A stretch of DNA of 32,000 bases from an uncultured Balneola sp. (GTDB lineage Bacteria > Bacteroidota > Rhodothermia > Balneolales > Balneolaceae), in the NCBI GenBank assembly GCA_902529115.1, contig CABZVB010000003.1, forward strand, positions 111,680-143,679, given 5' to 3'. A program made the translations under genes and the position numbers. This document shows positions 10,977-30,172 of the stretch, piece by piece (position 1 is the first letter of the stretch; each line of letters opens with the position of its first letter). Below the pieces are notes generated by a model. It made no database searches, was not told where the DNA came from, and saw only the letters and a program-made list of their open reading frames with translations.

Positions 10977-11855
10977 ATGAAGTACAATAAATCATTTGAA
11001 TTAGACGACATCAAAAAAATTATAAAAGACGCTGATGCACAAATAAGGTTAGAAGATGCTTTCAAGTCACAAGCAAATGAAATTGCTTCACTAAAACATC
11101 AATTGGATCTGTTAGAAAGCGCGATTCGAAACGATTATGATTCCATCATTATCACTGAGCTCAGTTTAGAGAAACCAGGACCTAAAATTGTTTACGTAAA
11201 TGACGGCTTCACCCGTATGACTGGGTACACAAAACAAGAAGTACTAGGAAAAACACCTCGTATACTCCAAGGAGAAAAAACAGACCGATCCATATTAGAA
11301 AGATTAAAAAGACGATTAATTGAAGGTCAAGCTTTTTTTGGTCATACCATTAATTATCGTAAAGACGGTTCAGAGTTTATTAACCAGTGGGATATTCATC
11401 CCTTGATGAATGCTCAAGGAGAGGTTACTCATTGGGTATCGTATCAGCGAGATGTTACAGAGAAAAAAGAAACAGCAAAGGCTATTTTTAATACTGATTT
11501 TGGTACACTACTTAAGCAACGAGAAGAGTTTATTCTTAAATTTTCTAAAGATGAATTAGGCTTTAATTGCAAATATATAAATGAAGCCTTCGAAGAAGTC
11601 ACAGGATGTAGCTCTGATGATATTTTTGAAAAAGGATTAGCTAGTGTTATACATCCAGACGATGTAGCCATGATACAGAATGCTCTAGGTAATGCGTTTG
11701 AAGGGAAAACAGTTTCTGAATTACTTCGATACAAAATTCCCAATTCTACTGAGTATCAAACGATATATCAGTCATTCAGTCCTGTAAAAGACGATACCAA
11801 TAACAAGATTTCAACAGTAAAATCCGTCGGTAAGCTAGAGTTGAAAGAGATTTAA
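10977..11855 (+). CDS. Coiled-coil plus tandem PAS protein with no recognisable output domain; the first PAS is LOV-like but lacks the adduct-forming Cys
   Basis: IVYVNDGFTRMTGYTKQEVLGKTPRILQGEKTD...INYRKDGSEFIN...SYQRDVTEKK aligns colinearly with the LOV consensus (GxNCRFLQG), with NC replaced by TP. The second PAS is around aa 185-290. Confidence 0.8.
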   Translation: MKYNKSFELDDIKKIIKDADAQIRLEDAFKSQANEIASLKHQLDLLESAIRNDYDSIIITELSLEKPGPKIVYVNDGFTRMTGYTKQEVLGKTPRILQGEKTDRSILERLKRRLIEGQAFFGHTINYRKDGSEFINQWDIHPLMNAQGEVTHWVSYQRDVTEKKETAKAIFNTDFGTLLKQREEFILKFSKDELGFNCKYINEAFEEVTGCSSDDIFEKGLASVIHPDDVAMIQNALGNAFEGKTVSELLRYKIPNSTEYQTIYQSFSPVKDDTNNKISTVKSVGKLELKEI

Positions 11856-11863
11856 GCGTACAT

Positions 11864-12292
11864 ATGTCGCAACCAAAGGCAAGTATTGAAGACGTCCAAA
11901 ATAGAATTGTCAGAGAATTCAATTTGCTTGAAGATTGGACTGAGCGCTATAAGTATATAATTAAACTTGGTACTAAGCTACCCCAACTCGATAGCTCCAA
12001 AAAGATAGAACACAACATAGTCAAGGGTTGCCAAAGTCAAGTATGGCTACACGCTGAATTCAGTGAAGGTAAAATCATTTTTGAGGCTGATAGTGATGCC
12101 GCTATCACAAAGGGACTGGTAGCATTGATGGTTCACCTATATAGCCATCAGTCTCCAAATGCCATTCTTGCAACAGAGCCCACCTTCATAACTGAGATTG
12201 GGATGAATGAACATCTTTCTCCTACAAGAGCTAATGGTTTGGCTTCTATGGTTAAGCAGATGAAAATTTACGCTCTAGCTTTTTCTTCTTAA
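11864..12292 (+). CDS. sufE: Cysteine desulfuration protein SufE/CsdE family
   Basis: 142 aa with the VKGCQSQVWL active-site motif typical of SufE. Confidence 0.85.
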   Translation: MSQPKASIEDVQNRIVREFNLLEDWTERYKYIIKLGTKLPQLDSSKKIEHNIVKGCQSQVWLHAEFSEGKIIFEADSDAAITKGLVALMVHLYSHQSPNAILATEPTFITEIGMNEHLSPTRANGLASMVKQMKIYALAFSS

Positions 12293-12418
12293 TGAAATCA
12301 TGAAATCCCATTGGGTGCATACATAACCTGAGTGCCTTTACATAGTCTATAGTGTGGATAAGTAGATAAAAAATGACACTTTGTGAGATTTATTCTCGTC
12401 TAAGTATCTAAACATCAA

Positions 12419-12426
12419 TAATTTTG
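12419..12426 (+). promoter_or_regulatory. Candidate -7 promoter box (TAATTTTG) for the 12568-17845 cluster
   Basis: Exact TAnnTTTG match in the 275-nt intergenic region upstream of 12568. There is no convincing -33 element, so this is motif evidence only. Confidence 0.25.
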
Positions 12427-12567
12427 AAGATTATTGTCATTAAATCAATATTCTACTTATTTTAGTCTAATATGTGGAAAACTCGAAAAATTTTCGCATA
12501 CTTAGCAATGCAGATATCATCATCTATACTTAGGCTTAAATAAATTACCTTCTGCGGGGGTTAAATC

Positions 12568-14502
12568 ATGGCAGGATACTTTAAATTTCTTGCTCTTACG
12601 GGCATTATTGCGCTTCAGAGTATTATTGTAACAGGGCAAATTGTGCCTGCACAGACTTTGTCTGCAGATGCCCAAGAAGAAACTGCTAAATATGAACGTT
12701 ATTATGAAATAATTTTAGATAATGCACTCTCAGATTATTATCGAGAAGGTACATTCATTGTAGATGTTAAGGCAACACTGGAGCGAATTTTAATCCCTAA
12801 AGGATATGAAGTTATACAGCCACAAGAAGACATTAAAATTGAAAATTTACCAGGATTACCTTTCATCCCACCAAATATACAAAAGAATAGGTCATCTAGT
12901 CAGGATAGTTTAAAAGCTTCAGGGTTTGATGCTCGCTTCCAGCTAACTAGACTCAATATAAAAGTACTCGTCGATACTTCTTACAGTGATGAGGATGTAG
13001 ATTTTGTGGAAGAAGCCGTTATATTGATTGCAAATGCCGATGAATTTCGTGGAGACATCATATCAGTTAGCAAAAAGGTATTTCCGCGCAACAACCGAGC
13101 CATTGCACAAGATATTAAAAAACCTACTGCACCAAATCCCGCGGCGTTGCTAGATAGAAACAATGAAATTAGTGATATTGAAGAAGAGCAAGAAGAGGAT
13201 AATGAAAGAGAAGAGGTTATCGAGAATAGTATGTTCCCACTTTCGCCAGACACAATAATACAAACAGTAGTTGCAGAAAGAGAAAAAAAGATGTTTTTAG
13301 GAATTGATTGGAATAATCCTGAGCAACTAATATTTATAATTATTGCATTAGGAATCTTATTCTTATTGGCATTATTTATGGCAATTTCCAGAAAAACCAA
13401 AGCCAAAGATGAAGAACAAATTATGCAGGATATGGGACAAACTACACCTGTATTACAAAATCCTCAAACTATCAACACAGAAGTAAAAACACCAGAACCT
13501 CAAACGGGGCCTACCGTAAGAGAAATGGCAAAATTCGAAGGAGACAAAACCTTCATTGCAAATATGTGTATTAGTAAACCAAAAATCGTTGCAGATATAA
13601 TAAGCGAATGGATTGAAAATGATGAAGAACAGGGTGTATCGAAGGCGGTAAAAAGCCTTATAAGTGTAGATGACAAGCTGTTGACTATTTTAAAGCCTCA
13701 TATAAGTTCCAATACTTTTGAGATGATTAATTTTGGTATTAATAATTTTGACGCCCTCACATTGGAAGAAAGGATAAGTGAAACAGAAAATTTCCGAAGC
13801 AGTATTACGACTTATAAAGCGTCTACAGATGCTGAAGGATCGCAAAACAGCCTATTCGACTTTGTAGATCAGTTGACGGATCAACAAATTCTGCACTTAA
13901 TGAAAGATGAGTCTGAGGAAATGATTTCAATCTTATTAGCACAGGTTGCGGGTGAAAGAGCTGGAGTTGTTTTACAAAAAATGGATGATGATAAGCGTAT
14001 ATCAGTCCTTCTCAAGATGGGCAAAATTAACAATATACCCATCTCAGTTTATAAAAAAGTTGCTTCTCATTTTTCTAACAAAGCATTAGAAATCTCTGAC
14101 ATGAAATATGTTGCAGCAGATGGTGTAGAAACTATATTAAATACAATTGAAACTATGCCACTATCTGAACAAGATGCATATGTTGCTTCAATTGCAGAAC
14201 AAGATTTAGAATTAGCTAAAAAAATTAAAAAGTTTTTTATCGGATTTGATGATTTACCTAAAGTAAAAATTGAATTAATAAAATCAGCACTTGACGAAAT
14301 ACCCTCTGAAACACTTATTTTAGCCCTACGTACTGCTCCTGCAGCAGTTCGAGAGAAAGTTTTAAAATCTCGAACCAAACGAGATCAACAACTCATACTC
14401 AGTGAAATAGAAATGCCTTCTGAAGCAACTAATTCAGAAGTTGAAGATGCCCAAAAAACTATTCTTTACGCAGTACGTCGAAAAATGAAAACAGAAGCAT
14501 AG
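12568..14502 (+). CDS. Bitopic/biTM membrane protein: N-terminal hydrophobic segment, ~225-aa periplasmic domain, TM helix, then a ~320-aa FliG-like cytoplasmic module (FliF-FliG-fusion-like architecture)
   Basis: aa 5-25 is hydrophobic and aa 254-273 (LIFIIIALGILFLLALFMAI) is a TM helix followed by SRKTKAK. aa 428-644 is colinear with the FliG middle and C domains: FDFV..L.DQQIL, ISILLAQVAGERAGVVLQKM, DGVETILNTI, EQDLELAKKIKKFFIGFDDL, LILALRTA, and SEVEDAQKTILYAVRRKM at the C-terminus. The periplasmic stretch LNIKVLVDTSY..VDFVEEAVILIAN..FRGDIISVSKKVF resembles the C-terminal ring-building motif of FliF/YscJ (RGDxxxV....F). Confidence 0.65.
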   Translation: MAGYFKFLALTGIIALQSIIVTGQIVPAQTLSADAQEETAKYERYYEIILDNALSDYYREGTFIVDVKATLERILIPKGYEVIQPQEDIKIENLPGLPFIPPNIQKNRSSSQDSLKASGFDARFQLTRLNIKVLVDTSYSDEDVDFVEEAVILIANADEFRGDIISVSKKVFPRNNRAIAQDIKKPTAPNPAALLDRNNEISDIEEEQEEDNEREEVIENSMFPLSPDTIIQTVVAEREKKMFLGIDWNNPEQLIFIIIALGILFLLALFMAISRKTKAKDEEQIMQDMGQTTPVLQNPQTINTEVKTPEPQTGPTVREMAKFEGDKTFIANMCISKPKIVADIISEWIENDEEQGVSKAVKSLISVDDKLLTILKPHISSNTFEMINFGINNFDALTLEERISETENFRSSITTYKASTDAEGSQNSLFDFVDQLTDQQILHLMKDESEEMISILLAQVAGERAGVVLQKMDDDKRISVLLKMGKINNIPISVYKKVASHFSNKALEISDMKYVAADGVETILNTIETMPLSEQDAYVASIAEQDLELAKKIKKFFIGFDDLPKVKIELIKSALDEIPSETLILALRTAPAAVREKVLKSRTKRDQQLILSEIEMPSEATNSEVEDAQKTILYAVRRKMKTEA

Positions 14503-14505
14503 ATA

Positions 14506-15702
14506 ATGAAAAAATTATTCATTCTACTTATCGTTTTCATTCTTGTAGTTCTGACTAATTCTTACTATGTCTCTGCTCAAATTTTTAATCATGAACAAGG
14601 TGATCCATACATGATTGAAAAAATCCAAGAACAGTTAAATCCAAATTTAGCTGATTTCCCTGCTACAGTGCGTCGTATAGCTATTTATAAAATAAATTAT
14701 TCAGCACTTAGATTCACAAATGAAGAAGTAGAATACATACGTGCAGAGATCGAATATTCTATGCGCAATTATGCTGGGCTTACTGTATTATCACCTCCAG
14801 AATTAGAACCAAACGATAAACTTAAGATTGTAGGGAACGATTCTACTCTACAAATTCTAAATATGCAAGGACGTTCCCTAGCAGATGTATCCCCAGAGAT
14901 GCTAGAAGAAATTGCCTATAAATACGGTGTCCAAGGTCTTGTTGAGTTAAGTTTACAACGAAGGGAACCTGAAGGACTAGTTATTAGTATCCGTGTAATG
15001 AATCCTCAATCACGCGAAGTAGTTTGGAGTAATTCGTTTATTTCAAACCCTCCAATAGTTTTACCTACTTTAAATCAAGGAACACAAAAACTAGTTACTT
15101 TTGGCATTAGTACTAAATCCTCTGATAGTTGGTACCGGAATAAATACGCAACATCCACAACAAGTAACGACACTACTGGTGCTGGTGCTGGTGCTGGTGC
15201 TGGTGCTGGTGCTGGTGCTGGCACTGATTCCACAGCGAACTCATTCTCACATCAAGCTGATACTCTGTTAAGACAACCTCTTACTGATTTCAGTGTAACA
15301 TTTACCTACAGACAGCCTTTAGATTTAGAAAATAGTTCTTATATTGGTTTTAGTGCTGGTTATCACATAGTTAGATCTCGAGATAGAGAACAAACATTAT
15401 TCGATATTTCACTATTCGAATTGGGATTAATCTATTATCAAGCTATATCAGAAAAAGTCCCAGATATAGACGAATATCGTGTAGTATTCTATTCCAAATT
15501 AAATACGCAATTCCCTCTTGGAAACAAAGAAGGTGAAATGTTTGTGTTAGAACCTGGACTGCAATTTAATTTAAGTAAAAATATTGGATTGTCTGTTTTT
15601 GGTAATCTCATGCTTGCTGGCGAAACTATAAAATTAGCAAACAAAGACCGTTTAACTTATAAACAAACTGGATTTGGATTTCATGCAGTTATTCGATTCT
15701 AA
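14506..15702 (+). CDS. Outer-membrane protein: signal peptide, periplasmic alpha/beta domain, low-complexity Thr/Ser/(Gly-Ala)7 linker, C-terminal beta-barrel
   Basis: Signal peptide MKKLFILLIVFILVVLTNSYYVSA|Q. The C-terminal third has alternating hydrophobic strands and ends in ...GFGFHAVIRF, an OMP beta-signal with terminal Phe. There is a 3-nt gap from the upstream gene. Confidence 0.6.
   Translation: MKKLFILLIVFILVVLTNSYYVSAQIFNHEQGDPYMIEKIQEQLNPNLADFPATVRRIAIYKINYSALRFTNEEVEYIRAEIEYSMRNYAGLTVLSPPELEPNDKLKIVGNDSTLQILNMQGRSLADVSPEMLEEIAYKYGVQGLVELSLQRREPEGLVISIRVMNPQSREVVWSNSFISNPPIVLPTLNQGTQKLVTFGISTKSSDSWYRNKYATSTTSNDTTGAGAGAGAGAGAGAGTDSTANSFSHQADTLLRQPLTDFSVTFTYRQPLDLENSSYIGFSAGYHIVRSRDREQTLFDISLFELGLIYYQAISEKVPDIDEYRVVFYSKLNTQFPLGNKEGEMFVLEPGLQFNLSKNIGLSVFGNLMLAGETIKLANKDRLTYKQTGFGFHAVIRF
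15178..15222 (+). repeat. In-frame hexanucleotide microsatellite (GGTGCT)x7 + GGC encoding (Gly-Ala)7-Gly
   Basis: Read directly from the sequence. Seven perfect GGTGCT units lie in frame with the 14506 ORF. Confidence 0.95.
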
Positions 15703-15715
15703 TAGCCTATTTTTC

Positions 15716-16324
15716 ATGAGAAAAGAATTCACAATAATAATTGTGCTTTTTATCGTTATGCATATTGGATGTGCAACACCGCAGTCTATATCAAATAGTT
15801 CAAATAGTCAGCCTACAAATCCGAATTCAAGAGCACTATCAAATTCACCTCGTATAACCAATTCTACTGATTCAGATAATTCACCTTCCAAAGAGGTTAT
15901 TACTGTTAATTATTTAAATGAAAGTTCAAATATTCAGATTAAACTAGACCCGTCCAAAGAGCAGTTTTATTTAGATTTAAGAGGCATGCGACCAGTCGAT
16001 AAAGATTCCATCATAGTAATCGATTCTAGTCTTGTACAAAATAGAGCTAGGGATATACAGTCTCTACTTACTAACTTTCGAAAAGCTCAAGATTTATTCT
16101 ATTTGGGAGAATATCGGCAGTCATTAGAATTTGTTGACAAAACCCTTGAGATACAAGAGACCGCAGACGCCTACGCCCTAAAAGGAACTGTTTTTTTTAT
16201 GCTAGAAAATATTACGGCAGCCCGCGCTAATTGGAATCGAGCAGTCCAAATGGATCCAAATATTCCAATTCCTAGTATCCCTGAATTAGAAACTTTAATA
16301 CAAGAGATCCGTGGAGGACAGTAA
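15716..16324 (+). CDS. TPR-repeat lipoprotein (ATG at 15716 preferred; the ORF-track start at 15674 is a TTG overlapping the upstream gene)
   Basis: MRKEFTIIIVLFIVMHIGC is a lipoprotein signal with lipobox Cys, followed by a Ser/Asn/Pro-rich linker. The C-terminal part is TPR-like (AQDLFYLGEYRQSLEFVDKTLEI...AYALKGTVFFMLENITAARANWNRAVQMDPN). Confidence 0.65.
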   Translation: MRKEFTIIIVLFIVMHIGCATPQSISNSSNSQPTNPNSRALSNSPRITNSTDSDNSPSKEVITVNYLNESSNIQIKLDPSKEQFYLDLRGMRPVDKDSIIVIDSSLVQNRARDIQSLLTNFRKAQDLFYLGEYRQSLEFVDKTLEIQETADAYALKGTVFFMLENITAARANWNRAVQMDPNIPIPSIPELETLIQEIRGGQ

Positions 16325-16327
16325 CAG

Positions 16328-17146
16328 ATGAAATTTTCAATTGGTTCAATGATCGGTACAGTCATTAGTTTAGCAATGATAATTTTTGGTGTATTGGAGA
16401 CAATCAAAAGAACGACATTTACTGATGGCATTAACACCCAATTTATGAATATACCTAGTATGGTCATTGTTGTAGGTGGGGTTCTTATGGCCTCTTATAT
16501 AACGTTTCAATCAAGGTACGTAAACAAAGCTTTAGCTGGGGTGAGATATTTTTTTAGTCAAGCAGGTGCAAACAAAAAATCTCTCCAAAAAGACTTTGAA
16601 TCAATTGTTGAATGGAATGACGAAATCAGAAAAGATAGAGTTAATGCATTAGATAGATTAGAAGAAGAACGAGGTGGGTACTTAGAAGGATATCTTTTTT
16701 CTCTTTTAAGTACCAATTATTCAAGTGACGACATTCGTCAATTCGGGACTAATCATATCCAAGAAAACTTTTTTAGGCAAATGGTTGTTGTTGATGTTCT
16801 TCGTGCGATGGGTGGAGCAGCTCCTGCCTTTGGTATGTTTGGTACATTATTTGGGCTAATTGATATGCTAAGTAATTTGGACGACCCTTCTGCCATGGGG
16901 CCTGGACTCGCAGCTGCTTTAATGACTACATTATATGGAATTATACTCTCGCGTTTCATTTTTTATCCTGTTGCTGAAAAAATTAAAAATTCAGCCTCTA
17001 TAAATCGTTTCCGAGAGACTTTCATGCTCGAAGGAATCATCTTAATTAATGAGAAGAAAACAGCATTTTATGTTCAGGATAAACTTAGCACTTTTTTACA
17101 GCGTGACTTCAAGAAGAAAGATGGTAAAGGTAAAGATAAAGACTAA
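16328..17146 (+). CDS. MotA/PomA-family ion-channel stator subunit (4 TM)
   Basis: TM1 is at aa 7-23 and TM2 at 42-60, followed by a ~100-aa cytoplasmic loop. TM3/TM4 contain GGAAPAFGMFGTLFGLIDML and GPGLAAALMTTLYGIILSRFIFYPVAEKI, the MotA_ExbB core with both conserved prolines. There is a 3-nt gap from the upstream gene. Confidence 0.85.
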   Translation: MKFSIGSMIGTVISLAMIIFGVLETIKRTTFTDGINTQFMNIPSMVIVVGGVLMASYITFQSRYVNKALAGVRYFFSQAGANKKSLQKDFESIVEWNDEIRKDRVNALDRLEEERGGYLEGYLFSLLSTNYSSDDIRQFGTNHIQENFFRQMVVVDVLRAMGGAAPAFGMFGTLFGLIDMLSNLDDPSAMGPGLAAALMTTLYGIILSRFIFYPVAEKIKNSASINRFRETFMLEGIILINEKKTAFYVQDKLSTFLQRDFKKKDGKGKDKD

Positions 17147-17182: not shown

Positions 17183-17845
17183 ATGAGTGCTAATGAAATT
17201 GAAGAAGCAGAAGAAGATCTTGAATATCTTCTTACATACAGTGATATGATCACTTTGCTGCTTGCATTTTTTGCCATTCTAATTGCTTCAAGTACCCCTG
17301 ATCAAGCTCTTTGGGACCAAATGAAAGAAGGTATGCGATCAGAAGTAACAGGTACTGAAATACAAAAAACACCATTAGCAGAAATTAAAGCTGATCTTGA
17401 TTCTGTCTTAACTCCTGAACGTAATCAAGGCTTAGTTAACATTGATTTGACTACCAAAGAAATTGTGATGACATTTAATAGTAGTTCACTTTATATCTCA
17501 GGTGGTGCTGAACTATTACCCTCAGGTGAGGGTATTATTCGTAAAGTATCTGACGCTCTAAATGGATTATCATTCTACAATTTTAAAGTAGATATCGAAG
17601 GGCATACAGATAATGTTCCCATAAATACTCTAAGATTCCCTTCTAACTGGGAACTTTCTGTTGCTAGAGCCTCTGAAGTAGTTAAATTTCTAGTTAACCA
17701 AGGATACAAAGCTTCCAATCTCAAAGCATCAGGATATGCAGATACACAACCCTTACCTACTGCACCCCATACTGACGAATTTGGACAAGATATCGTAGAA
17801 AATCGCGCAAAAAATAGACGAATCGTACTTCGAATTTTTTATTAA
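17183..17845 (+). CDS. MotB/PomB-family stator subunit with OmpA-like peptidoglycan-binding domain
   Basis: LLTYSDMITLLLAFFAILI is the MotB TM helix with the conserved protonatable Asp. The C-terminus GHTDNVPI...SNWELSVARASEVVKFL...NRAKNRRIVLRI is OmpA_C-like. Confidence 0.85.
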   Translation: MSANEIEEAEEDLEYLLTYSDMITLLLAFFAILIASSTPDQALWDQMKEGMRSEVTGTEIQKTPLAEIKADLDSVLTPERNQGLVNIDLTTKEIVMTFNSSSLYISGGAELLPSGEGIIRKVSDALNGLSFYNFKVDIEGHTDNVPINTLRFPSNWELSVARASEVVKFLVNQGYKASNLKASGYADTQPLPTAPHTDEFGQDIVENRAKNRRIVLRIFY

Positions 17846-18598: not shown

Positions 18599-19240
18599 TT
18601 AAGGTGCAGGCCGATGAAATAAGAACTGCTCATCTACTTCTTGTATAAAGCGCCAATCTCCTTGATCCAGTATATATACTACATGATAGAACCGGCGCTC
18701 GGTATCCTCAACAATATAATGTAAGTGCCGAGTAACCATAACATCTTCTAAATGACGCGTTTCTATGCTATGGATTTGATAAGAACTATTTTTCCCTTTT
18801 AAAAAACGATACGGATGCATACGGTCTATTTTGGCATGTTCAATAGAACTCTGCCGTGCACATTGAGCATAAGGAAGCCACTCAAAACGAATAGGGCGTA
18901 TACGGTGAGCCAGCGAAGGCTGGTGTTTGTGTCGCTGCTGATGTACCAATACCCGATCAATAACTAGACGCGATTCATCCTCGCTATGTATAGATGAATC
19001 GAATCCAGGAAGTGCTACTATGTCCCAGAGTAATTCATCGTGATTAAATCGTACATCCATAGTTTCTCCATGTTGAGTTGTAATACTAAAAAATGAATAC
19101 GGTACTCCTCCCAGCATCTTAGTATGACAGGACTTGATCTGACGCACCTTCCGCACATAACGATGCCTCCAATCAAAGGTATGCGCCTCTGAATAGCGGG
19201 GGAAAAAAGTGAGCATTTCTATAAGTGGAAAGTTATTCAT
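18599..19240 (-). CDS. Hypothetical His/Arg-rich protein (ATG at 19240 preferred over TTG at 19246), divergent from the Y-family polymerase gene
   Basis: Long ORF with no family I recognise. About 18 His in ~213 aa by my count. No TM segment, P-loop, HTH or S24 peptidase motif was seen. Confidence 0.6.
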   Translation of the reverse strand: MNNFPLIEMLTFFPRYSEAHTFDWRHRYVRKVRQIKSCHTKMLGGVPYSFFSITTQHGETMDVRFNHDELLWDIVALPGFDSSIHSEDESRLVIDRVLVHQQRHKHQPSLAHRIRPIRFEWLPYAQCARQSSIEHAKIDRMHPYRFLKGKNSSYQIHSIETRHLEDVMVTRHLHYIVEDTERRFYHVVYILDQGDWRFIQEVDEQFLFHRPAP

Positions 19241-19261
19241 GACCAATTTTTATTTGGTCAT
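19239..19261. promoter_or_regulatory. Inverted repeat ATGACCAA-N7-TTGGTCAT in the divergent promoter region (candidate operator)
   Basis: Perfect 8-bp arms read from the sequence. The left arm overlaps the ATG of the - strand gene. The repeat lies ~47 nt upstream of the polymerase ATG. Confidence 0.4.
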
Positions 19262-23134: not shown

Positions 23135-24445
23135 TTATTCAAAATCAGAGGTTAATTTATACCGAGCAATACGATTATTTCCTTTGTCGGCTACATAAAC
23201 TACTCGGCGAAAATATGCCACACCACTAGGCATATTAAACTGTTTAGGACCTGCCCCTAGCTCACCAAAAGACACCATAATCTGACGTGTTTGATCTTCC
23301 GCTCCTGCTGGTGGGGGGACACCTTCTTGACCATTAGACTGAAACTGGTATAATCGGTGCGTCTCACTATCTACTACAAAAATAAATGCGTCATCATCCC
23401 CACCAAATGCTACATCTTGAGGATTTAGAAATTTATTGGTTTCGTATAAAAACCCACTTGCTTGTGAAGTATCCTGGGCTAGTAGTTGTGAATTTTGTTG
23501 ATAAACCAACCCATCAACCGTCTCTACTACGTCAATCCATAAAACTCGAAACGGTATATCTATGTTGGCTTGTGATTGTGTAATCAAAAAGCTTCGATTA
23601 TCAGTATAGGTATCTCTCTGTGGTGGGGCTACAAAGGTAGCTATTCCGCTCAGGCCTATAGCACTTCTTAAAGAAGGCACGTTTGGGCTAAGGCTCCTGA
23701 TTTGACGCACGTTACGCATCTTATCTGTTTTAATGCCGTTTTCTACTATTCGGTGAAATTCTAACACCGTATTATCTGGCGCCGCAACTTGAGTGGTCTC
23801 ATTGAATGGACCAGTTCTTGTGACATACAAGGTATTATCAGCCAGTATGCTGAGACCAGTGATTTTCACTTTTTCGTAATTGGTCCCACTGCTACGATTT
23901 AAGCGTGAATTTTGAGCCGCAGAAGTACTTAAACTCGCATCATCAAATGGAAAAATAAGAGTATCTACAAATTTTATAGGGCCCGCTCCGTTCATATTCT
24001 TTATTTTTAACACAGCGGGAAGATTCCATGTAATGGAAGGATCAATACTCTCAATAATCGTATCAATCCTAGCTGCTACATACACGTTCAAGAGTCTATC
24101 CTGAGTAACTGCTTCTGCTCCTTCTAATTCTATGGTCACTCGTGGAGATAGATCAGCTCTATCTAGTAAATGAACCCCATTAGCATCAGTTACGTAAACA
24201 AATTCATCAAATCCTACATGTATATCATTAGGAGCGTCGAACCCACCCCAAAATGGTAATACTGGGGCATAACCATCTACATTTTCTAATCGGGGATCAA
24301 TTTTACCTTCGTTAAATATTTCGTCGGTATCTGCATTGTCTTTGGTGTTAAATAGTTCACTACATCCACCTTGAACCATCATCAAAAAGAACAGTAGCAA
24401 AGGTGCTAAAACTCTCATAAAAGGTTGAATTAGTGCTAATTTCAT
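23135..24445 (-). CDS. Lipoprotein with beta-propeller/NHL-like repeats
   Basis: Signal plus lipobox LLFFLMMVQGGC. The C-terminal repeat GVAYFRRVVYVADKGNNRIARYKL is NHL-like. The start overlaps the upstream stop (ATGA). Confidence 0.6.
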   Translation of the reverse strand: MKLALIQPFMRVLAPLLLFFLMMVQGGCSELFNTKDNADTDEIFNEGKIDPRLENVDGYAPVLPFWGGFDAPNDIHVGFDEFVYVTDANGVHLLDRADLSPRVTIELEGAEAVTQDRLLNVYVAARIDTIIESIDPSITWNLPAVLKIKNMNGAGPIKFVDTLIFPFDDASLSTSAAQNSRLNRSSGTNYEKVKITGLSILADNTLYVTRTGPFNETTQVAAPDNTVLEFHRIVENGIKTDKMRNVRQIRSLSPNVPSLRSAIGLSGIATFVAPPQRDTYTDNRSFLITQSQANIDIPFRVLWIDVVETVDGLVYQQNSQLLAQDTSQASGFLYETNKFLNPQDVAFGGDDDAFIFVVDSETHRLYQFQSNGQEGVPPPAGAEDQTRQIMVSFGELGAGPKQFNMPSGVAYFRRVVYVADKGNNRIARYKLTSDFE

Positions 24446-25497
24446 AAACTTACTCTCACTCCTATCCGATGAATTTGCCCCAAACGCTCAAAACGAGTGT
24501 AGGCATAATCAGCTTTCAATATTCTACCGACAAAAGGTACAGACACGCCACCACCAAGACTAGGTATTCTGCGTTCTAATTGTCCAAATTCATAGCCAGT
24601 TCTGAGATGAAATTGATCCATAAAACTGTACTCAGCACCTATGTTTAATTGCTCAGCATTATCAGATGGATTAGTGACTTGAGCCGTAATTGTTACTTTA
24701 TTTTGCTGATTATCAACCAAATCATATGCAGCACCAATATGGAAACGGGTCGGTAACGATGTATTAGTTTCTGGTTCTAATTCTAAAACTCCCTCTAAGG
24801 ACTCTCTTTGAGTAGTACCATCTGGTGCCGCATCCAGACCAAAGTTATTAATCCCTACTCCAAAACGTAGTCCTGTATCTCCTACCCGATAAGCAAAACC
24901 AAAATCTATGGCACCACTTTGGTATTGTATCTCTTCAACTTTTTCTAATAGATACTTAAAGCTAAGACCATAGCTGAATAAATCCGTTACCTTCTGAGCA
25001 ACTGAAAGTCCAGCAGCCATATGGTGGGTTGAAAATATTCTGCCCGTACCAAAGGGTTGAAACTCCGTAGTTTCCACTATGTCACCAGACCCTAAGTACT
25101 GAACAGAAACACCGATTGCATAGCTATTGATACGCTGGATATAACTAAAATAATCTTGCTGAATACCAGCTACATACTCCGTATGACTGACCATAAATTC
25201 TGATCCATTCGTTTCTGCAGATAAAGCAGGATTCCAATATAAACTAGAGCCATCCATTGCATCGGCCATATTGGAATTCCCCATAGCCGCCGAACGGGGA
25301 TCGACTGGAATTTTAGTAAACTGGAAACCTTCCGTGCCTGCTCGGTCTTGCCCAAAGCTTTTTTGAGCTTTTAGCGTAGTGGTAGAGCCAGCTAGGAATA
25401 AAAATAACAATACTATAAACCCAACATATACTAAAATACTGTTTGGTAATATTCGGTTATAGAAAGTACGTTTGATATGCTTTTCTATTGAATTCAT
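24442..25497 (-). CDS. PorV/FadL-like outer-membrane beta-barrel (possible T9SS shuttle paralogue)
   Basis: After the signal peptide, IPVDPRSAAMGNSNMADAMDGSSLYWNPALSA resembles the conserved N-terminal motif of the PorV/LptO family. Alternating beta-strand patterning runs to the C-terminus. At 351 aa it is shorter than canonical PorV. Confidence 0.5.
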   Translation of the reverse strand: MNSIEKHIKRTFYNRILPNSILVYVGFIVLLFLFLAGSTTTLKAQKSFGQDRAGTEGFQFTKIPVDPRSAAMGNSNMADAMDGSSLYWNPALSAETNGSEFMVSHTEYVAGIQQDYFSYIQRINSYAIGVSVQYLGSGDIVETTEFQPFGTGRIFSTHHMAAGLSVAQKVTDLFSYGLSFKYLLEKVEEIQYQSGAIDFGFAYRVGDTGLRFGVGINNFGLDAAPDGTTQRESLEGVLELEPETNTSLPTRFHIGAAYDLVDNQQNKVTITAQVTNPSDNAEQLNIGAEYSFMDQFHLRTGYEFGQLERRIPSLGGGVSVPFVGRILKADYAYTRFERLGQIHRIGVRVSL

Positions 25498-25498
25498 G

Positions 25499-28480
25499 TT
25501 AGAATCGAATCGATACCCCTACCATTAAATGTCGTTGTTCTATATAATTGGCTGGGTTATCGTAGGCGGGTAAGTTATTATCGGTTGGATCTAAATACCT
25601 TGGATCTCGAACGTTACCTGGGACATCATAACTTCTATCGCTTCGAAGTACCATCAACGCTGCAGGATCTCGTGGATATTTCTTATAACCTTCACCCGTA
25701 ACCGGATTAACAATGACTGAACTTCTGTTGTCCAAAACATTAGTAATTTCAGCAAAGGTAGAAATACGAACACCTTGTACTTCAAACCACTTTTGAATGT
25801 TCAAATCCATGTAGAACCAAGCAGGGCCTAATTCACTGTAACGTTTGGTAGGATCGACTACACGCTCATAATTGGGGCGCCAATCTTCTCTACCTGTAAC
25901 TGGGTTTCGCTGCAGTCCGATGAATTCCATAGGAGTATAACGGGTCCCGGATCGCCATACCCCTGATAAAAAGATCTGAAAGTCATTTAAAGCAGACCAC
26001 CCAAACAAACCTTGTGGCCTATCATGAGTAAAAGTGATATTACCTTTTATATCAAATGGGCGATCCCAAGCTAAAGGAGTTTCTACATTACTTCCAATAT
26101 TTTGGTTTGCATTGATTGCATTTAAATTATCATCATTAGTAGAACTAAGCCCCTCTGCTCGTGAATAGGTAAAAGAAAGTTGGCCTCTAATTAAATCCTT
26201 GTAGCGTTTAATATAGGATAACTCTATCCCTCTAGAACGGGCATAATCCCCATTAATTCGAAAAGCTTTACTTACGTTTCGACCATCTACATCCTGAACT
26301 CGAATAGATTGGGTGGTAACAAAATCATATTTATCTCTCCAAAAGGCAGAAGCATTAAATGCATCGTTCGAAGTAATTTGATTTCTAAACCCAATTTCAT
26401 AAGAAATATCAACTTCTGGATCTAAGTTGGGGTTTCCTAAATCAGGCAAATCAGACTGATCTTGATAAAATGGATCTAGGCCTGCATATATATAAGAGGG
26501 ATGAGGAATTCGAGTCGAGTGTCCGTAATTAAAGAATAACACTTGATTTTCCCGAACAGGAAATGACACATTAATCTTAGGTAAAAACCTAAACTTATAG
26601 CGAAGACCTAAAATTTCGGAACTACTGTCTAGATAATCTTGTGCTACAAAAGTAGGAATAGTGGAGAGGGTATTTGGATCAAGTGCATTATTTACCGCAT
26701 TGTCCACATACCTTCCTGGAGCCCAATACTCTAATCTAGCTCCAATATTAGCTATAAGTCCATTGTACCTTATTTTATCGGTTACAAAAATGGCCCCTCT
26801 CTTTGGCTTAACTCGCCATGCATCGAAAGTTTCTCCTACCCTAAACGTTTCCGAAGTCCTGTTCTCATCAATAAATATGGGTGCTCCAATCCAAGGACGT
26901 GTGATATCAATCCATTGATAGTCATTAAATTTAAATTCAAATCCCGCTACTATTTGATTCGTGCGATCACCAAAAAACTTAGTTAGGCTACTTTTTACAG
27001 TAAGTTCCTCCGCAAAATGATCGTGCCATAGAGTGGAAATACCCCCATTGTTTACATAGCCTGGACCTGCTAATACATAGGTGAAGTCCTCGCCTCCTTC
27101 AAACTCCTCTGCAGGGGAAATCACAATACTCTCTGGATCAAACTCACTATCCACATTGGTTGGGCGCCATTTACGCCCGTTTGCATCGGCACGGAGCCGG
27201 GTGAATAATCGACTCACCTGAACCTCATAAAAAGCTGACTGCGTGAGCGTCTGAGTATATTTTAGATAGGACAAATTACTATCATGAGTATACGTACTGG
27301 CATTATCTAAAAACCCATTTGAAAAGGCGAATTGAAATCCAGGTCGAATCTGCGTATCGGCCCCTGTAATCTGAAGCATTCGCGTATTCTGATTAATGGT
27401 TAAAGAGCGCTGATAAGCACCCTGTAATCGAACACCAGGTTTGATGTTATATGTCATCTTAAACATACCATTCCAGCGGTTCCCTTGTCGGGGGGACCAA
27501 AAATCACTATTCACGATGGATGAGCGAATTTGATTCGCCGATAATTTGGTATAGCCATCAGTAAGTGAAATTTGTCCTGTAACAAAAAAAGTAAGTGAAC
27601 CAGGCAAATCGATACCTAAAGCAGGTAATAATTGCTCGGTTAAAATAGACGGACCACCTATGCTTAATTCATAGATATCAGAGAAAAAGTTTGCCTGATT
27701 AGACAATATATTGCTGCCCAAATTATCTCGTTTATGAGAGAAGTTACCTTCGTAACGTTCTCCTCCATTTTGAGTTTGCACCGAAACCACACCCGAGGTT
27801 ACGTCACCATATTCTGCCCCAACACCACCTGTAATAACCTCTATATTACTGAACGAATTAGACCCTAAATCGAGCCCAAACCCCGTTCCTGCCAATGGAT
27901 CCTGTGCAGAAACACCATCAACCACATAGCCTGTTTCATAGGCACGTCCTCCTTTTATATAAAGTCCAGTAGGATCTTTAACCACTCCAGATTGCAAAGA
28001 AACAGCATCTTCTACCCTCTGAATAGGCGCTGCTTCAATATCTTTTTTCGATATAGTAGAAGAGGTTGTAGATTTTTCAACATCAAAAATTGGTGCCTCA
28101 CCGATGACGACTACTTCTTGGTCAGATTCAAAGATTTGTTCGGTCAAGCTTTGGTTTACTTCCGTAGTTTCGCCAGCCTCGACTACAATGCCAGTTAATT
28201 GGGTAACCTGAAACCCAATAAACGTAATTTCAAGAGTGTACTCACCTGGTCGGATACTCTTAATAACAAATCGACCATCCACATCCGTTGCCGCTCCAAA
28301 ATTTGTACCTACTATACGAACATTTACACCAGGCAATGTCTCTCCAGTTGCCCCCTCGGTTATAACACCAATTATATTACCTGTACTTTGTGCTTTAAGT
28401 TCAGCACTACTAAATACCATGAAAAAAAAGAAACAGGTAGCTAAAAATAAAAAAGAACGGGTATGTTTTTTTGTATACAT
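25499..28480 (-). CDS. TonB-dependent receptor-like outer-membrane protein with N-terminal CarboxypepD_reg domain
   Basis: Signal peptide, then GNIIGVITEGATGETLPGVNVRIVGTNFGAATDVDGRFVIKSIRPGEYTLEITFIGF (carboxypeptidase-regulatory-like). It has a plug region (IEVITGGVGAEYGD), a long barrel and a C-terminal MVGVSIRF. 993 aa. Confidence 0.8.
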   Translation of the reverse strand: MYTKKHTRSFLFLATCFFFFMVFSSAELKAQSTGNIIGVITEGATGETLPGVNVRIVGTNFGAATDVDGRFVIKSIRPGEYTLEITFIGFQVTQLTGIVVEAGETTEVNQSLTEQIFESDQEVVVIGEAPIFDVEKSTTSSTISKKDIEAAPIQRVEDAVSLQSGVVKDPTGLYIKGGRAYETGYVVDGVSAQDPLAGTGFGLDLGSNSFSNIEVITGGVGAEYGDVTSGVVSVQTQNGGERYEGNFSHKRDNLGSNILSNQANFFSDIYELSIGGPSILTEQLLPALGIDLPGSLTFFVTGQISLTDGYTKLSANQIRSSIVNSDFWSPRQGNRWNGMFKMTYNIKPGVRLQGAYQRSLTINQNTRMLQITGADTQIRPGFQFAFSNGFLDNASTYTHDSNLSYLKYTQTLTQSAFYEVQVSRLFTRLRADANGRKWRPTNVDSEFDPESIVISPAEEFEGGEDFTYVLAGPGYVNNGGISTLWHDHFAEELTVKSSLTKFFGDRTNQIVAGFEFKFNDYQWIDITRPWIGAPIFIDENRTSETFRVGETFDAWRVKPKRGAIFVTDKIRYNGLIANIGARLEYWAPGRYVDNAVNNALDPNTLSTIPTFVAQDYLDSSSEILGLRYKFRFLPKINVSFPVRENQVLFFNYGHSTRIPHPSYIYAGLDPFYQDQSDLPDLGNPNLDPEVDISYEIGFRNQITSNDAFNASAFWRDKYDFVTTQSIRVQDVDGRNVSKAFRINGDYARSRGIELSYIKRYKDLIRGQLSFTYSRAEGLSSTNDDNLNAINANQNIGSNVETPLAWDRPFDIKGNITFTHDRPQGLFGWSALNDFQIFLSGVWRSGTRYTPMEFIGLQRNPVTGREDWRPNYERVVDPTKRYSELGPAWFYMDLNIQKWFEVQGVRISTFAEITNVLDNRSSVIVNPVTGEGYKKYPRDPAALMVLRSDRSYDVPGNVRDPRYLDPTDNNLPAYDNPANYIEQRHLMVGVSIRF

Positions 28481-28490
28481 AAGCTAGCGT

Positions 28491-30039: not shown

Positions 30040-30172
30040 AATCGATTGAATCGATGACTTTTGATTGAGTAACCTTTAGAAACTCAAATCTCTATTGATT
30101 GAAAACAGCATTCAAAGAAAAAAGATGAGATGAGAGCTTCCACTCCCACCTCAAAATATGATTTATATAAAA

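What the first reader, a model, noticed from the sequence alone, without database searches (positions are those of the whole stretch)
12568..14502. Single polypeptide with FliF-like topology fused to a roughly full-length FliG-like module that lacks the EHPQR FliM-binding motif
Seen in sequence: the protein has a hydrophobic N-terminus (aa 5-25), a ~225-aa extracytoplasmic region and a TM helix (aa 254-273, nt 13327-13386) followed by a positively charged stretch. About 320 aa then follow (nt ~13540-14499), close to the size of FliG, and the last ~215 aa align colinearly with FliG_M and FliG_C. The extracytoplasmic stretch at aa 122-172 (nt 12931-13083) has a beta-alpha-beta pattern ending in FRGDIISVSKKVF. 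From memory, this resembles the RGDxLxV..xF ending of the FliF/YscJ ring-building region just before TM2.

Established knowledge: FliF is TM-periplasmic ring-TM with a cytoplasmic tail that binds FliG, and engineered FliF-FliG fusions are functional. Where FliG has EHPQ(R), this protein has DESEEM (aa 447-452). The torque-helix charges look only partly kept (KRDQQLILSE).

Inference: this is a minimal MS-ring/C-ring hybrid that would not recruit FliM/FliN.
Basis: partly seen in the sequence, partly recalled or inferred. Interest (0 to 1): 0.8.

Follow-up and report, generated by a model that had tools for sequence, protein, structure and literature searches.

The report
Rotor–stator motor without a flagellum

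Summary
ORF 12568-14502 (644 aa) is a natural FliF–FliG fusion.

- **Layout:** a Sec-type signal peptide, a periplasmic domain, one TM helix, a FliF C-tail-like helix, then a FliG-like N/M/C module.
- **Periplasmic domain:** its AlphaFold model (pLDDT 88.9) matches only FliF RBM3/β-collar structures at the top of a PDB Foldseek search (18 hits, E 7e-7 to 9e-5).
- **Colinearity:** a family profile aligns to E. coli FliF 399-552 (its end) and then to FliG 5-319.
- **Differences from FliF/FliG:** RBM1, RBM2 and TM1 are absent. The EHPQR motif keeps only E and R.

The gene heads a conserved five-gene cluster: fusion, a secreted about 370-400 aa protein, a TPR (lipo)protein, and PomA/MotA-like and MotB-like stator proteins. 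The cluster is present in all uncut Balneolaceae loci and in six distant loci, two of them Elusimicrobiota and Fibrobacterota. It is never next to flagellar genes and is under purifying selection (dN/dS 0.05-0.15). It occurs in non-motile Gracilimonas tropica.

Best reading (inferred, not shown): a non-flagellar rotor–stator machine acting on the outer envelope. I found no published description.

The parts
12568..14502 (+). FliF(RBM3-TM-C-tail)–FliG fusion protein, 644 aa
   Evidence: ORF; Pfam FliG_M/FliG_C; family profile colinear with E. coli FliF 399-552 then FliG 5-319; dN/dS about 0.1
12568..12636 (+). Probable cleaved Sec signal peptide (aa 1-23, cleavage before invariant Q24)
   Evidence: Weak hydrophobicity (KD 1.9 vs 3.2 for the TM). 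Homologues show K/R n-region, short h-region, A/G-x-A/G|Q. Heuristic call; no SignalP was available.
12673..13101 (+). Periplasmic ring-building domain (aa 36-178), FliF RBM3 + β-collar-like: α-β(long)-[LPGLP loop]-β(long)-α-β
   Evidence: AlphaFold pLDDT 88.9, pTM 0.69. Foldseek PDB top 18 hits are all FliF S-ring/RBM3, E 7e-7 to 9e-5. Profile vs PDB hits only FliF, E=0.0067 and 0.11. Faint Pfam YscJ_FliF_C in 10 of 22 members.
13102..13326 (+). Variable acidic periplasmic linker and conserved juxtamembrane motif (FLGIDWNNP), aa 179-253
   Evidence: Length-variable, gap-rich columns in A1; composition
13327..13386 (+). Single transmembrane helix (aa 254-273), positive residues on the C-terminal side
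   Evidence: KD 3.2. One strong TM at the same relative place in about 130 family representatives. Aligns to FliF TM2 in the profile alignment.
13555..13629 (+). FliF C-terminal tail-like helix (aa 330-354, IANMCISKPKIVADIISEWIENDEE)
   Evidence: 11/25 identical to E. coli FliF 528-552 IREMSDNDPRVVALVIRQWINNDHE, the last residues of FliF. The profile alignment ends exactly at the FliF C-terminus. P338 in 46/60 and W348 in 52/60.
13630..14499 (+). FliG-like module (aa 355-644): weak N, clear M (aa 439-509) and C (aa 541-641) domains
   Evidence: R605 (= FliG R281) is basic in 60/60; E613 (= D289) is acidic in 26/60.
14506..15702 (+). P2: secreted 398-aa protein with no family assignment; conserved partner; probably outer-membrane associated
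   Evidence: Signal peptide ...VSA|Q; ends ...HAVIRF. Orthologues are alignable across phyla (A7). Always adjacent. Only faint LpoB/FlgO hits.
15716..16324 (+). P3: TPR (lipo)protein (mechanical ORF starts at TTG 15674; ATG 15716 gives MRKEF...HIGC lipoprotein-type signal)
   Evidence: Pfam TPR_1/TPR_2. Cys after the signal in 4 of 6 orthologues. Conserved position.
16328..17146 (+). MotA/PomA-like stator A subunit, 272 aa
   Evidence: Pfam MotA_ExbB. NCBIfam best hits MotP/PomA at E 1e-39 to 1e-36, vs TolQ/ExbB at about 1e-3. PDB PomA E=1.3e-28 over nearly the full length. R101/D109 lie opposite PomA R88/E96; T173/T200/T201 lie opposite PomA T158/T185/T186.
17183..17845 (+). MotB/PomB-like stator B subunit, 220 aa: TM Asp (D21), plug, OmpA-like peptidoglycan-binding domain
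   Evidence: Pfam MotB_plug + OmpA; NCBIfam MotD/MotS/MotB; PDB MotB/PomB alignments including the ...YSDMITLLL TM motif

Best explanation
**Shown by homology.** ORF 12568-14502 encodes a natural fusion of the C-terminal third of the flagellar MS-ring protein FliF with a FliG-like rotor protein. The FliF-derived part is the RBM3/β-collar ring-building domain, the second TM helix and the FliG-binding tail. An N-terminal signal peptide replaces FliF's TM1, RBM1 and RBM2. The gene is the first of a conserved five-gene unit. The other four encode a secreted about 370-400 aa protein (P2), a TPR (lipo)protein (P3), and a PomA/MotA-like and a MotB-like stator pair.

**Inferred mechanism.**
1. The fusion oligomerises through its RBM3 domain into an inner-membrane ring. 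This ring has an S-ring-like periplasmic face and a FliG ring on the cytoplasmic face.
2. MotAB 5:2 units anchor to peptidoglycan through the MotB OmpA-like domain. They are driven by H+ or Na+ flow through the conserved Asp/Thr sites.
3. They push on the FliG_C domains, where the R281-equivalent is universally kept.
4. There is no export gate, rod, hook, filament or FliM/FliN switch. The work would instead pass from the periplasmic ring to P2 and/or P3 at the outer envelope.

The output (load) is unknown. The system is non-flagellar in at least some hosts.
For: **Homology of the fusion**
- Foldseek top 18 PDB hits are all FliF RBM3/S-ring, from a confident model.
- The family profile hits only FliF in the PDB.
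- The profile is colinear with E. coli FliF 399-552 (27.6 bits; best of 2000 shuffles 8.3) and then FliG 5-319 (110.6 bits).
- The FliF C-tail motif is present. FliG_M/FliG_C score above the Pfam cutoffs.

**Stator**
- Nearest to PomA/MotP/MotA and MotB/PomB, with plug, Asp and OmpA-like domain.

**Functional linkage**
- All five genes are present in all 33 loci not cut by a contig end, all Balneolaceae or close relatives, although flanks differ.
- All five are also present in six distant loci: L037 Elusimicrobiota, L039, L041 Fibrobacterota, L042 and L043 (gene order permuted; the P3 ORF in L043 is short and has no Pfam hit), and L046.
- No flagellar gene appears in any flank.

**Selection and spread**
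- dN/dS is 0.00-0.15 for all five genes.
- 126 representatives at E<=1e-30; among those listed, almost all long enough to be complete are about 580-730 aa with the same architecture.

**Ring competence**
- Isolated FliF RBM3 forms rings (bioRxiv 10.1101/2021.09.23.461508).
- FliF–FliG fusions assemble rings (PDB 8z4d; PMC11481574).

**Non-flagellar host**
- The cluster is intact in Gracilimonas tropica DSM 19535 (L030).
- That species is listed as non-motile (PMC5167729) and as lacking flagellar assembly genes (PMC9909488).
Against: - No oligomer was modelled, and no experiment shows a ring, rotation or a MotA–FliG contact.
- Rotor-side and stator-side charges are only partly conserved across the family. 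The D289-equivalent is acidic in 26/60. D288, R297 and K264 equivalents are not kept. PomA R88/E96 equivalents vary among distant MotA orthologues.
- The FliG_N region is only weakly FliG-like (11.4 bits; Pfam FliG_N below cutoff).
- Absence of flagellar genes was not checked in this MAG. Some Balneolaceae carry flagellar gene sets, and Balneola vulgaris was described as flagellated.
- P2 and P3 have no demonstrated contact with the ring. Their outer-membrane location is inferred from signal peptides, a lipobox-like Cys and a C-terminal aromatic residue only.
- The signal-peptide call is heuristic.
Confidence: 0.6

Rival explanations
1. Static scaffold or force transducer rather than a rotor. 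The fusion (ring or not) only docks and activates the MotAB units. Their ion-driven conformational work is handed to P2/P3 in the way ExbBD–TonB or TolQR–TolA energise outer-membrane processes, without continuous rotation of a ring.
For: - All other non-flagellar 5:2 motors known (Ton, Tol, Gld, Agl, Zor) couple to non-ring partners (PMC9389320 and PMC12505986).
- The cluster includes outer-envelope-type proteins.
- The torque-helix charge set is incomplete.
Against: - The periplasmic domain is specifically the FliF ring-building RBM3/collar fold, and isolated RBM3 forms rings.
- The stator is of the flagellar PomA/MotA type with the large cytoplasmic domain, not ExbB/TolQ-like.
- The FliG R281-equivalent is invariantly basic.
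Confidence: 0.2
2. Part of a true flagellum. The fusion is an alternative or auxiliary MS/C-ring protein, and the MotAB pair an extra stator set, for a flagellar apparatus encoded elsewhere in the genome.
For: - Balneola vulgaris was described as flagellated, and some Balneolaceae (Aliifodinibius/Fodinibius) carry many flagellar genes (PMC5167729; PMC9909488).
- All parts are homologous to flagellar motor parts.
Against: - RBM1/RBM2, which form the inner ring around the export gate, are missing.
- HPQ of the FliM-binding EHPQR motif is lost.
- No flagellar gene flanks the cluster in more than 40 loci.
- The cluster is intact in non-motile G. tropica, which is reported to lack flagellar assembly genes.
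- P2 and P3 are conserved partners unknown from flagella.
Confidence: 0.12
3. Decaying relic of a lost flagellum with no present function.
For: Loss of flagella is inferred within Balneolaceae (PMC9909488). About 11% of non-motile species retain some rotor protein (PMC12199754).
Against: - ORFs are intact in all loci.
- dN/dS is 0.00-0.15 for all five genes.
- The same five-gene set is kept at 17-30% identity across phyla, with unrelated flanks and even a permuted order.
- Many columns are invariant.
Confidence: 0.04
4. MgtE-type cytoplasmic sensing domain on a membrane anchor (FliG_C and MgtE_N are related folds), unrelated to torque generation.
For: Faint MgtE_N hits in 21 of 22 members (best E=0.012).
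Against: - FliG_C scores E=1.7e-18 against 0.13 for MgtE_N.
- The protein is colinear with the whole of FliG.
- There is no MgtE channel domain.
- It is always linked to MotAB.
Confidence: 0.02

Closest known systems
Flagellar MS-ring protein FliF plus rotor protein FliG (Salmonella/E. coli/Vibrio)
   Same: - RBM3/β-collar fold.
- The ...RGDxxxVxxxxF strand, TM2 and the C-terminal DPxxVAxxIxxWIxxD FliG-binding helix.
- FliG M and C domains, with the R281-equivalent kept.
- Encoded with a PomA/MotA-MotB type stator.
   Different: - One polypeptide.
- Signal peptide instead of TM1.
- No RBM1/RBM2, hence no housing for an export gate.
- HPQ of EHPQR is lost, and GG is replaced by DG.
- Not encoded with any other flagellar gene.
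- Scores far below the FliG equivalog cutoff (90 vs 226.7 bits).
- Two unrelated conserved partners (P2, P3).
Engineered or spontaneous FliF–FliG fusions (Salmonella; Vibrio FliFG, PDB 8z4d/8z4g)
   Same: Same order of parts (FliF then FliG in one chain). 8z4d is a direct sequence and fold hit.
   Different: Those are full-length FliF (two TMs, RBM1-3) joined to FliG inside a complete flagellum. This one is natural, truncated to RBM3, and outside any flagellar locus.
Chlamydiaceae natural FliF–FliG fusion (Bergeron 2016, PMC4768692)
   Same: A natural fusion of a shortened FliF with FliG-like sequence, in bacteria not thought to be flagellated.
   Different: - The Chlamydia protein is about 330 aa with two TMs.
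- It keeps RBM2 plus one unassigned RBM and lacks the SpoIIIAG-like RBM3.
- It carries only a FliG_M-like region, and no MotAB linkage is mentioned for it there.
- Here RBM3 and the FliG N/M/C regions (N only weakly FliG-like) are kept, with a dedicated stator.
Non-flagellar 5:2 ion-driven motors (ExbBD–TonB, TolQR–TolA, GldLM, AglRQS, ZorAB)
   Same: A MotAB-family motor coupled to an envelope function other than a flagellum (PMC9389320, PMC12505986).
   Different: None of those uses FliG or an MS-ring-type partner. Here the A subunit is of the flagellar PomA/MotA type. ZorA is not hit at all, and ZorB is hit only through generic MotB similarity.
Other RBM ring proteins (SpoIIIAG, PrgK/YscJ)
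   Same: αββαβ ring-building motif. PrgK/YscJ proteins also combine an N-terminal export signal with a C-terminal TM (my knowledge).
   Different: Much weaker fold matches (SpoIIIAG 5wc3 E=0.032; PrgK 2y9j_Y E=0.0097) than to FliF RBM3 (E about 1e-6). No sequence-profile hit.

Membership tests
FliF (flagellar MS-ring protein) | Two transmembrane helices flanking the periplasmic region (N-in, C-in) | tested here: not met
   The N-terminal segment has signal-peptide character, with a conserved small-x-small|Q site in homologues. There is only one strong TM. This is heuristic; SignalP/DeepTMHMM were not available.
FliF (flagellar MS-ring protein) | RBM1 and RBM2 (Pfam YscJ_FliF, PF01514) | tested here: not met
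   No PF01514 hit in any of 22 members at E<=1. The periplasmic region is only about 190-230 aa, and RBM3 plus a linker account for all of it.
FliF (flagellar MS-ring protein) | RBM3 with β-collar insertion | tested here: met
   AlphaFold model pLDDT 88.9. Foldseek top 18 hits are all FliF RBM3/S-ring, E 7e-7 to 9e-5, TM about 0.5. The profile hits only FliF in the PDB.
FliF (flagellar MS-ring protein) | C-terminal cytoplasmic FliG-binding helix | tested here: met
   aa 330-354 vs E. coli FliF 528-552, 11/25 identical. The profile alignment runs to the last residue of FliF.
FliF (flagellar MS-ring protein) | Assembles a ring of about 33-34 subunits that houses the export gate and rod | not testable with these tools
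   No multimer modelling was possible. No export-gate or rod genes lie in or near the cluster.
FliG (flagellar rotor/switch protein) | Colinear N, M and C domains | tested here: met
   aa 326-642 vs Salmonella FliG 8-318. Pfam M and C are above cutoff; N is below (21.9 vs 25). The N region is weak in the profile alignment (11.4 bits).
FliG (flagellar rotor/switch protein) | Scores as FliG equivalog (TIGR00207 / NF004260) | tested here: not met
   90.2 bits vs cutoff 226.7; 27.7 vs 550
FliG (flagellar rotor/switch protein) | EHPQR FliM-binding motif | tested here: not met
   E448 in 53/60 and R477 in 43/60 are kept. The H, P and Q positions are S/P/E, D/E/P and G.
FliG (flagellar rotor/switch protein) | Charged torque-helix residues (K264, R281, D288, D289, R297) | tested here: inconclusive
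   R281-equivalent is basic in 60/60. D289-equivalent is acidic in 26/60. D288 is mostly S, R297 is hydrophobic, and K264 is R only in Balneolaceae.
FliG (flagellar rotor/switch protein) | Encoded and working with FliM/FliN and the rest of the flagellar regulon | tested here: not met
   No flagellar gene in the 32-kb window or in the flanks of more than 40 related loci. Whole genomes were not scanned.
Flagellar-type stator MotAB/PomAB | A subunit with four TMs and a large cytoplasmic torque-generating domain; B subunit with TM Asp, plug and OmpA-like domain | tested here: met
   PomA aligns over residues 23-243. MotB_plug + OmpA; D21 in ...YSDMITLLL. NCBIfam scores are below the equivalog cutoffs (133.6 vs 394), so this is a distinct subfamily.
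Zorya anti-phage defence (ZorAB) | ZorA and ZorB with ZorC/D or ZorE partners | tested here: not met
   PADLOC gives only ZorB models matching the MotB-like protein. There is no ZorA and no other component.

The most novel reading that the evidence does not exclude
A self-contained, ion-driven rotary machine made only of a FliF(RBM3)–FliG ring and MotAB stators. It has no export apparatus, rod, hook, filament or switch. It turns in the inner membrane and does work on two dedicated outer-envelope proteins. If so, the rotor–stator core of the flagellum can exist and be useful by itself. It would be either an exaptation or a surviving relative of a pre-flagellar motor.
Probability: 0.4. Interest if true: 0.92.

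Novelty: new variant of a known kind. Interest (0 to 1): 0.82.

Why it matters
[quoted passage not shown] This cluster is a concrete, conserved, selectable candidate.
- **Minimal torque-generating unit.** It would have one rotor protein and two stator proteins, with no switch complex. That suits structural and single-molecule work on how MotA turns FliG.
- **Evolution of the flagellum.** It bears on whether the rotor–stator module and the type III export core are separable.
- **A possible new envelope machine.** It occurs in abundant marine Balneolaceae (hits from Tara and many marine assemblies) and in Elusimicrobiota and Fibrobacterota. It may act in surface movement, outer-membrane dynamics or transport.
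- **A cultured host exists.** Gracilimonas tropica DSM 19535 carries the cluster.

Tried and rejected
- **First AlphaFold run.** aa 24-253 with a shallow alignment (22 sequences, all >=58% identical) gave pLDDT 47.6 and was discarded. A 49-sequence alignment of the core (aa 36-178), drawn from the representative search, gave pLDDT 88.9.
- **Second word-indexed homology search.** Run with the diverse profile, it returned mostly the same close Balneolaceae proteins.
- **The search for related loci.** A narrower one worked but reached only Balneolaceae/Rhodothermia.
- **P2.** Profile vs PDB gave only insignificant TonB-receptor barrel strands (E=2.3). Pfam gave faint LpoB/FlgO hits in 1-2 of 7 members.
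- **Defence system (Zorya).** Rejected.
- **MgtE_N reading.** Rejected.
- **Upstream regulatory RNA.** No Rfam family matches anywhere in the window. Promoter and terminator scans were at background level.
- **Fibrobacter succinogenes lead.** The MotA/TPR/OmpA cellulose-adhesion proteins there are ExbB/ExbD/TonB-type and unrelated.
- **Literature.** Five searches for any description of a non-flagellar FliG/FliF–MotAB system found none. The library lacks most subscription journals.
- **Flagellar gene matrix.** The supplement of PMC9909488 holds only a KO list, not a per-genome table.
Full report
**The observation.** ORF 12568..14502 (+) encodes 644 aa.
- Its hydropathy profile shows a weak N-terminal hydrophobic segment (aa 5-27, Kyte-Doolittle maximum 1.9).
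- It shows one strong TM helix (aa 254-273, maximum 3.2), followed by SRKTKAK.
- The C-terminal half is FliG-like well beyond chance. Pfam FliG_C scores E=1.7e-18 and FliG_M E=2.5e-8, both above their cutoffs.
- TIGR00207 aligns aa 345-638 to model positions 30-319 of 338, though at 90 bits against a cutoff of 226.7.
- Salmonella FliG (8umd) aligns aa 326-642 to residues 8-318 at E=2e-18.

**The N-terminus is a signal peptide, not FliF's TM1.**
- In 22 close and about 130 distant full-length homologues the N-terminus has a short K/R-rich n-region and a 10-15 residue hydrophobic core.
- It also has a small-x-small site followed, in Balneolaceae, by an invariant Gln (…AYA|Q, …VTG|Q).
- Conservation begins only after that site.
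- The mature protein is therefore most likely type I: periplasmic N-terminus, one TM, cytoplasmic C-terminus. This rests on sequence heuristics; no signal-peptide predictor was available.

**The periplasmic domain is FliF's RBM3 with a collar-like hairpin.**
- A first AlphaFold run with a shallow alignment failed (pLDDT 47.6).
- A profile search of 1.84 billion cluster representatives showed the family is large and diverse. It gave 126 hits at E<=1e-30; among those listed, almost all long enough to be complete are about 580-730 aa with the same architecture.
- A 49-sequence alignment of the conserved core (aa 36-178) has these motifs: YE..L..YY, FxVD, LPGLP, VLVDTSY, F, RGD...V....FP.
- That alignment gave a confident model (pLDDT 88.9, pTM 0.69): α, long β, loop, long β, α, β.
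- In a Foldseek search of the PDB, the top 18 matches (E 7e-7 to 9e-5, probability 1.0, TM about 0.5) are all FliF MS-ring RBM3/S-ring/collar structures from Salmonella and Vibrio. The next class (Ohr/OsmC) starts at E=2e-3. PrgK scores 1e-2 and SpoIIIAG 3e-2.
- Independently, the sequence profile of this domain hits only two of the 177,635 distinct PDB sequences at E<=10, and both are FliF. One scores E=0.0067. The other scores 0.11, with three colinear segments on FliF 246-289, 365-390 and 420-453.
- Pfam's YscJ_FliF_C gives the same faint signal in 10 of 22 members. The RBM1/RBM2 family PF01514 is never hit.

**The protein is colinear with FliF's end joined to FliG.**
- aa 330-354 (IANMCISKPKIVADIISEWIENDEE) match the last 25 residues of E. 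coli FliF (IREMSDNDPRVVALVIRQWINNDHE; 11 identities). This is the FliG-binding tail.
- An HMM built from 60 diverse family members aligns in one piece to E. coli FliF 399-552. The stretch runs through RBM3 α2-β3, TM2 and the linker to the very last residue.
- That alignment scores 27.6 bits, against a maximum of 8.3 bits in 2000 shuffles of FliF.
- From the next profile position onward, the HMM aligns to FliG residues 5-319 at 110.6 bits.
- This is therefore a natural FliF–FliG fusion. TM1, RBM1 and RBM2 have been replaced by a signal peptide.

**State of the FliG functional motifs across 60 diverse members.**

| FliG residue(s) | Equivalent here | Conservation |
|---|---|---|
| E125 | E448 | 53/60 |
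| H126, P127, Q128 | aa 449-451 | replaced |
| R160 | R477 | 43/60 |
| Gly-Gly linker | D518-G519 | D 49/60, G 55/60 |
| R281 | R605 | basic in 60/60 |
| D289 | E613 | acidic in 26/60 |
| D288, R297, K264 | aa 612, 620, 588 | not conserved |

The FliM-binding site looks degraded. Part of the stator-facing surface is kept.

Four genes follow tightly on the same strand.
- **P2 (14506-15702):** 398 aa, signal peptide, no Pfam family, ends …VIRF.
- **P3 (about 15716-16324):** a TPR protein with a lipoprotein-type signal.
- **MotA-like protein (16328-17146):** nearest to MotP/PomA (E 1e-39 to 1e-36) against TolQ/ExbB at about 1e-3. PDB PomA scores E=1.3e-28 over nearly its full length.
- **MotB-like protein (17183-17845):** has the TM Asp (D21), the plug and an OmpA-like domain.
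- In the MotA-like protein, the residues opposite PomA R88/E96 are R101/D109. The three Thr residues essential for Na+ conduction in PomA (T158, T185, T186; PMC6677748) are all present (T173, T200, T201). Na+ coupling is therefore possible but not shown.

**The five genes form a conserved unit.**
- A scan of one genome per species found 33 loci, all Balneolaceae/Rhodothermia. The window is about 96% identical to a Balneola sp. MAG.
- Of the 36 loci then held (these 33 plus three fetched earlier), the 33 not cut by a contig end carry all five genes in the same order. Their flanks differ.
- Six distant loci, whose fusion proteins are only about 18-30% identical to this one, also carry all five. 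They are L037 (Elusimicrobiota), L039, L041 (Fibrobacterota), L042 and L043, and L046.
- In L042 and L043 the order is permuted to P2–TPR–MotA–MotB–fusion, and the P3 ORF in L043 is short and has no Pfam hit.
- One locus (L044) has a variant with small ORFs in place of P2/P3.
- P2 orthologues from different phyla align at 17-20% identity with shared motifs.
- No flagellar gene occurs in any of these flanks or in the 32-kb window.
- dN/dS between the window and close relatives is 0.00-0.15 for all five genes. These are working genes, not relics.

**Is the host flagellated?**
- The cluster is intact in Gracilimonas tropica DSM 19535 (L030).
- That species is tabulated as non-motile (PMC5167729). 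A KEGG-based comparison reports that it, like the genus Balneola, lacks flagellar assembly genes (PMC9909488).
- The same literature says Balneola vulgaris was described with flagella, and that Aliifodinibius/Fodinibius carry many flagellar genes.
- I could not scan whole genomes. 'Non-flagellar' is therefore supported for at least one cultured host and by the anatomy (no RBM1/2, no neighbours). It is not proven for this MAG.

**Mechanism.**
- *Shown:* homology of each part, and the conserved linkage of the five genes.
- *Established elsewhere:* isolated FliF RBM3 forms rings (bioRxiv 10.1101/2021.09.23.461508). FliF–FliG fusions assemble rings (PDB 8z4d). MotA contacts FliG at R90/E98 with D288-D289/R281 (PMC12505986).
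- *Inferred:* the fusion forms an inner-membrane ring with a FliG face. Peptidoglycan-anchored MotAB units apply torque or force to it. With no rod or export gate, the periplasmic ring passes this on to P2/P3 at the outer envelope.
- The load is unknown.
- I hold the rotor–stator reading at about 0.6. A non-rotating Ton/Tol-like transducer is the main rival (0.2). A role in a true flagellum is next (0.12).

**Comparison with what is known.**
- The closest families are FliF and FliG themselves. The protein fails several of their defining features: two TMs, RBM1/2, EHPQR, equivalog scores and the flagellar gene context. It should not be filed as either.
- The only natural FliF–FliG fusion I found in the literature is the Chlamydiaceae protein (PMC4768692). 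It is the opposite kind of truncation: it keeps RBM2, lacks RBM3 and has only FliG_M, and no MotAB linkage is mentioned for it there.
- Public annotations call family members 'FliG C-terminal domain-containing protein', 'flagellar motor switch protein FliG' or 'hypothetical protein'.
- Five full-text searches found no description of this five-gene system. A 2025 survey explicitly leaves open what rotor proteins do in non-motile species.

**Verdict.** The finding is real, and more interesting than first stated. It is a widespread, conserved, apparently non-flagellar module built from the flagellar rotor and stator plus two unknown envelope proteins. Function and rotation remain to be shown.

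Noticed in passing
window 15176-15221 (inside P2, 14506-15702): A perfect in-frame hexanucleotide repeat (CTGGTG, 7.7 copies) encodes (Ala-Gly)n between the N- and C-terminal halves of P2. Copy number differs among near-identical relatives (7 here, 3 in L004, 8 in L005), and the repeat is absent from more distant orthologues. This suggests slippage-prone length variation of a linker.
   Followed up: partly
window 15674-15716: The mechanical ORF for the TPR protein starts at TTG 15674 and overlaps the end of P2 by 29 nt. ATG 15716 gives MRKEFTIIIVLFIVMHIGC..., a lipoprotein-type signal. A Cys at this place is found in 4 of 6 orthologues from different phyla.
   Followed up: partly
window 10977-12292: A double-PAS protein with no output domain (292 aa) and SufE lie directly upstream of the cluster. 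They stay within about 0.3-7 kb upstream in most Balneolaceae loci but are not seen in other phyla. A regulatory link of the PAS protein to the cluster is possible but untested.
   Followed up: partly
window 12293-12567: A 275-nt AT-rich intergenic region lies ahead of the fusion gene. It has no Rfam match, and promoter-like hits are only at background level. The organism probably uses Bacteroidota-type promoters, which the scan does not cover.
   Followed up: partly
window 18599-19246 (-): A 215-aa ORF with no Pfam family lies just past the SRAP gene. A 220-aa gene sits at the same place in L003, so it is probably real.
   Followed up: no
window 23135-31990 (-): A block of outer-membrane and type IX secretion-related genes: an NHL-repeat protein, a PorV-like protein (24442-25497), a CarboxypepD_reg + TonB-dependent receptor (25499-28480), two ORFs without family, and a protein with a Por_Secre_tail C-terminal sorting domain (30173-31990). 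The organism thus appears to have a T9SS, which is relevant when thinking about surface functions.
   Followed up: no
L044:1-5910: A variant cluster. Its fusion protein is 733 aa with a longer periplasmic part (TM at about aa 320). It is followed by 188-aa and 47-aa ORFs in place of P2/P3, then MotA and MotB.
   Followed up: no
P0226, P0239, P0261: Some representatives of about 330-445 aa contain the FliF-tail-like motif plus the FliG-like module but no signal peptide, RBM3 or TM. They may be contig-end fragments, or genuinely soluble, unfused relatives.
   Followed up: no
literature: There is a conflict about Balneola. B. vulgaris is cited as motile with flagella, while a KEGG-based comparison reports the genus as lacking flagellar assembly genes. 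If both hold, the basis of that motility would be worth re-examining in the light of this cluster.
   Followed up: no
L037:16090-21845: In the Elusimicrobiota locus the cluster is followed, on the other strand, by type IV pilus / T2SS-like genes (PilX_N, T2SSF, T2SSE). This is not seen in other loci, so it is probably coincidental.
   Followed up: no
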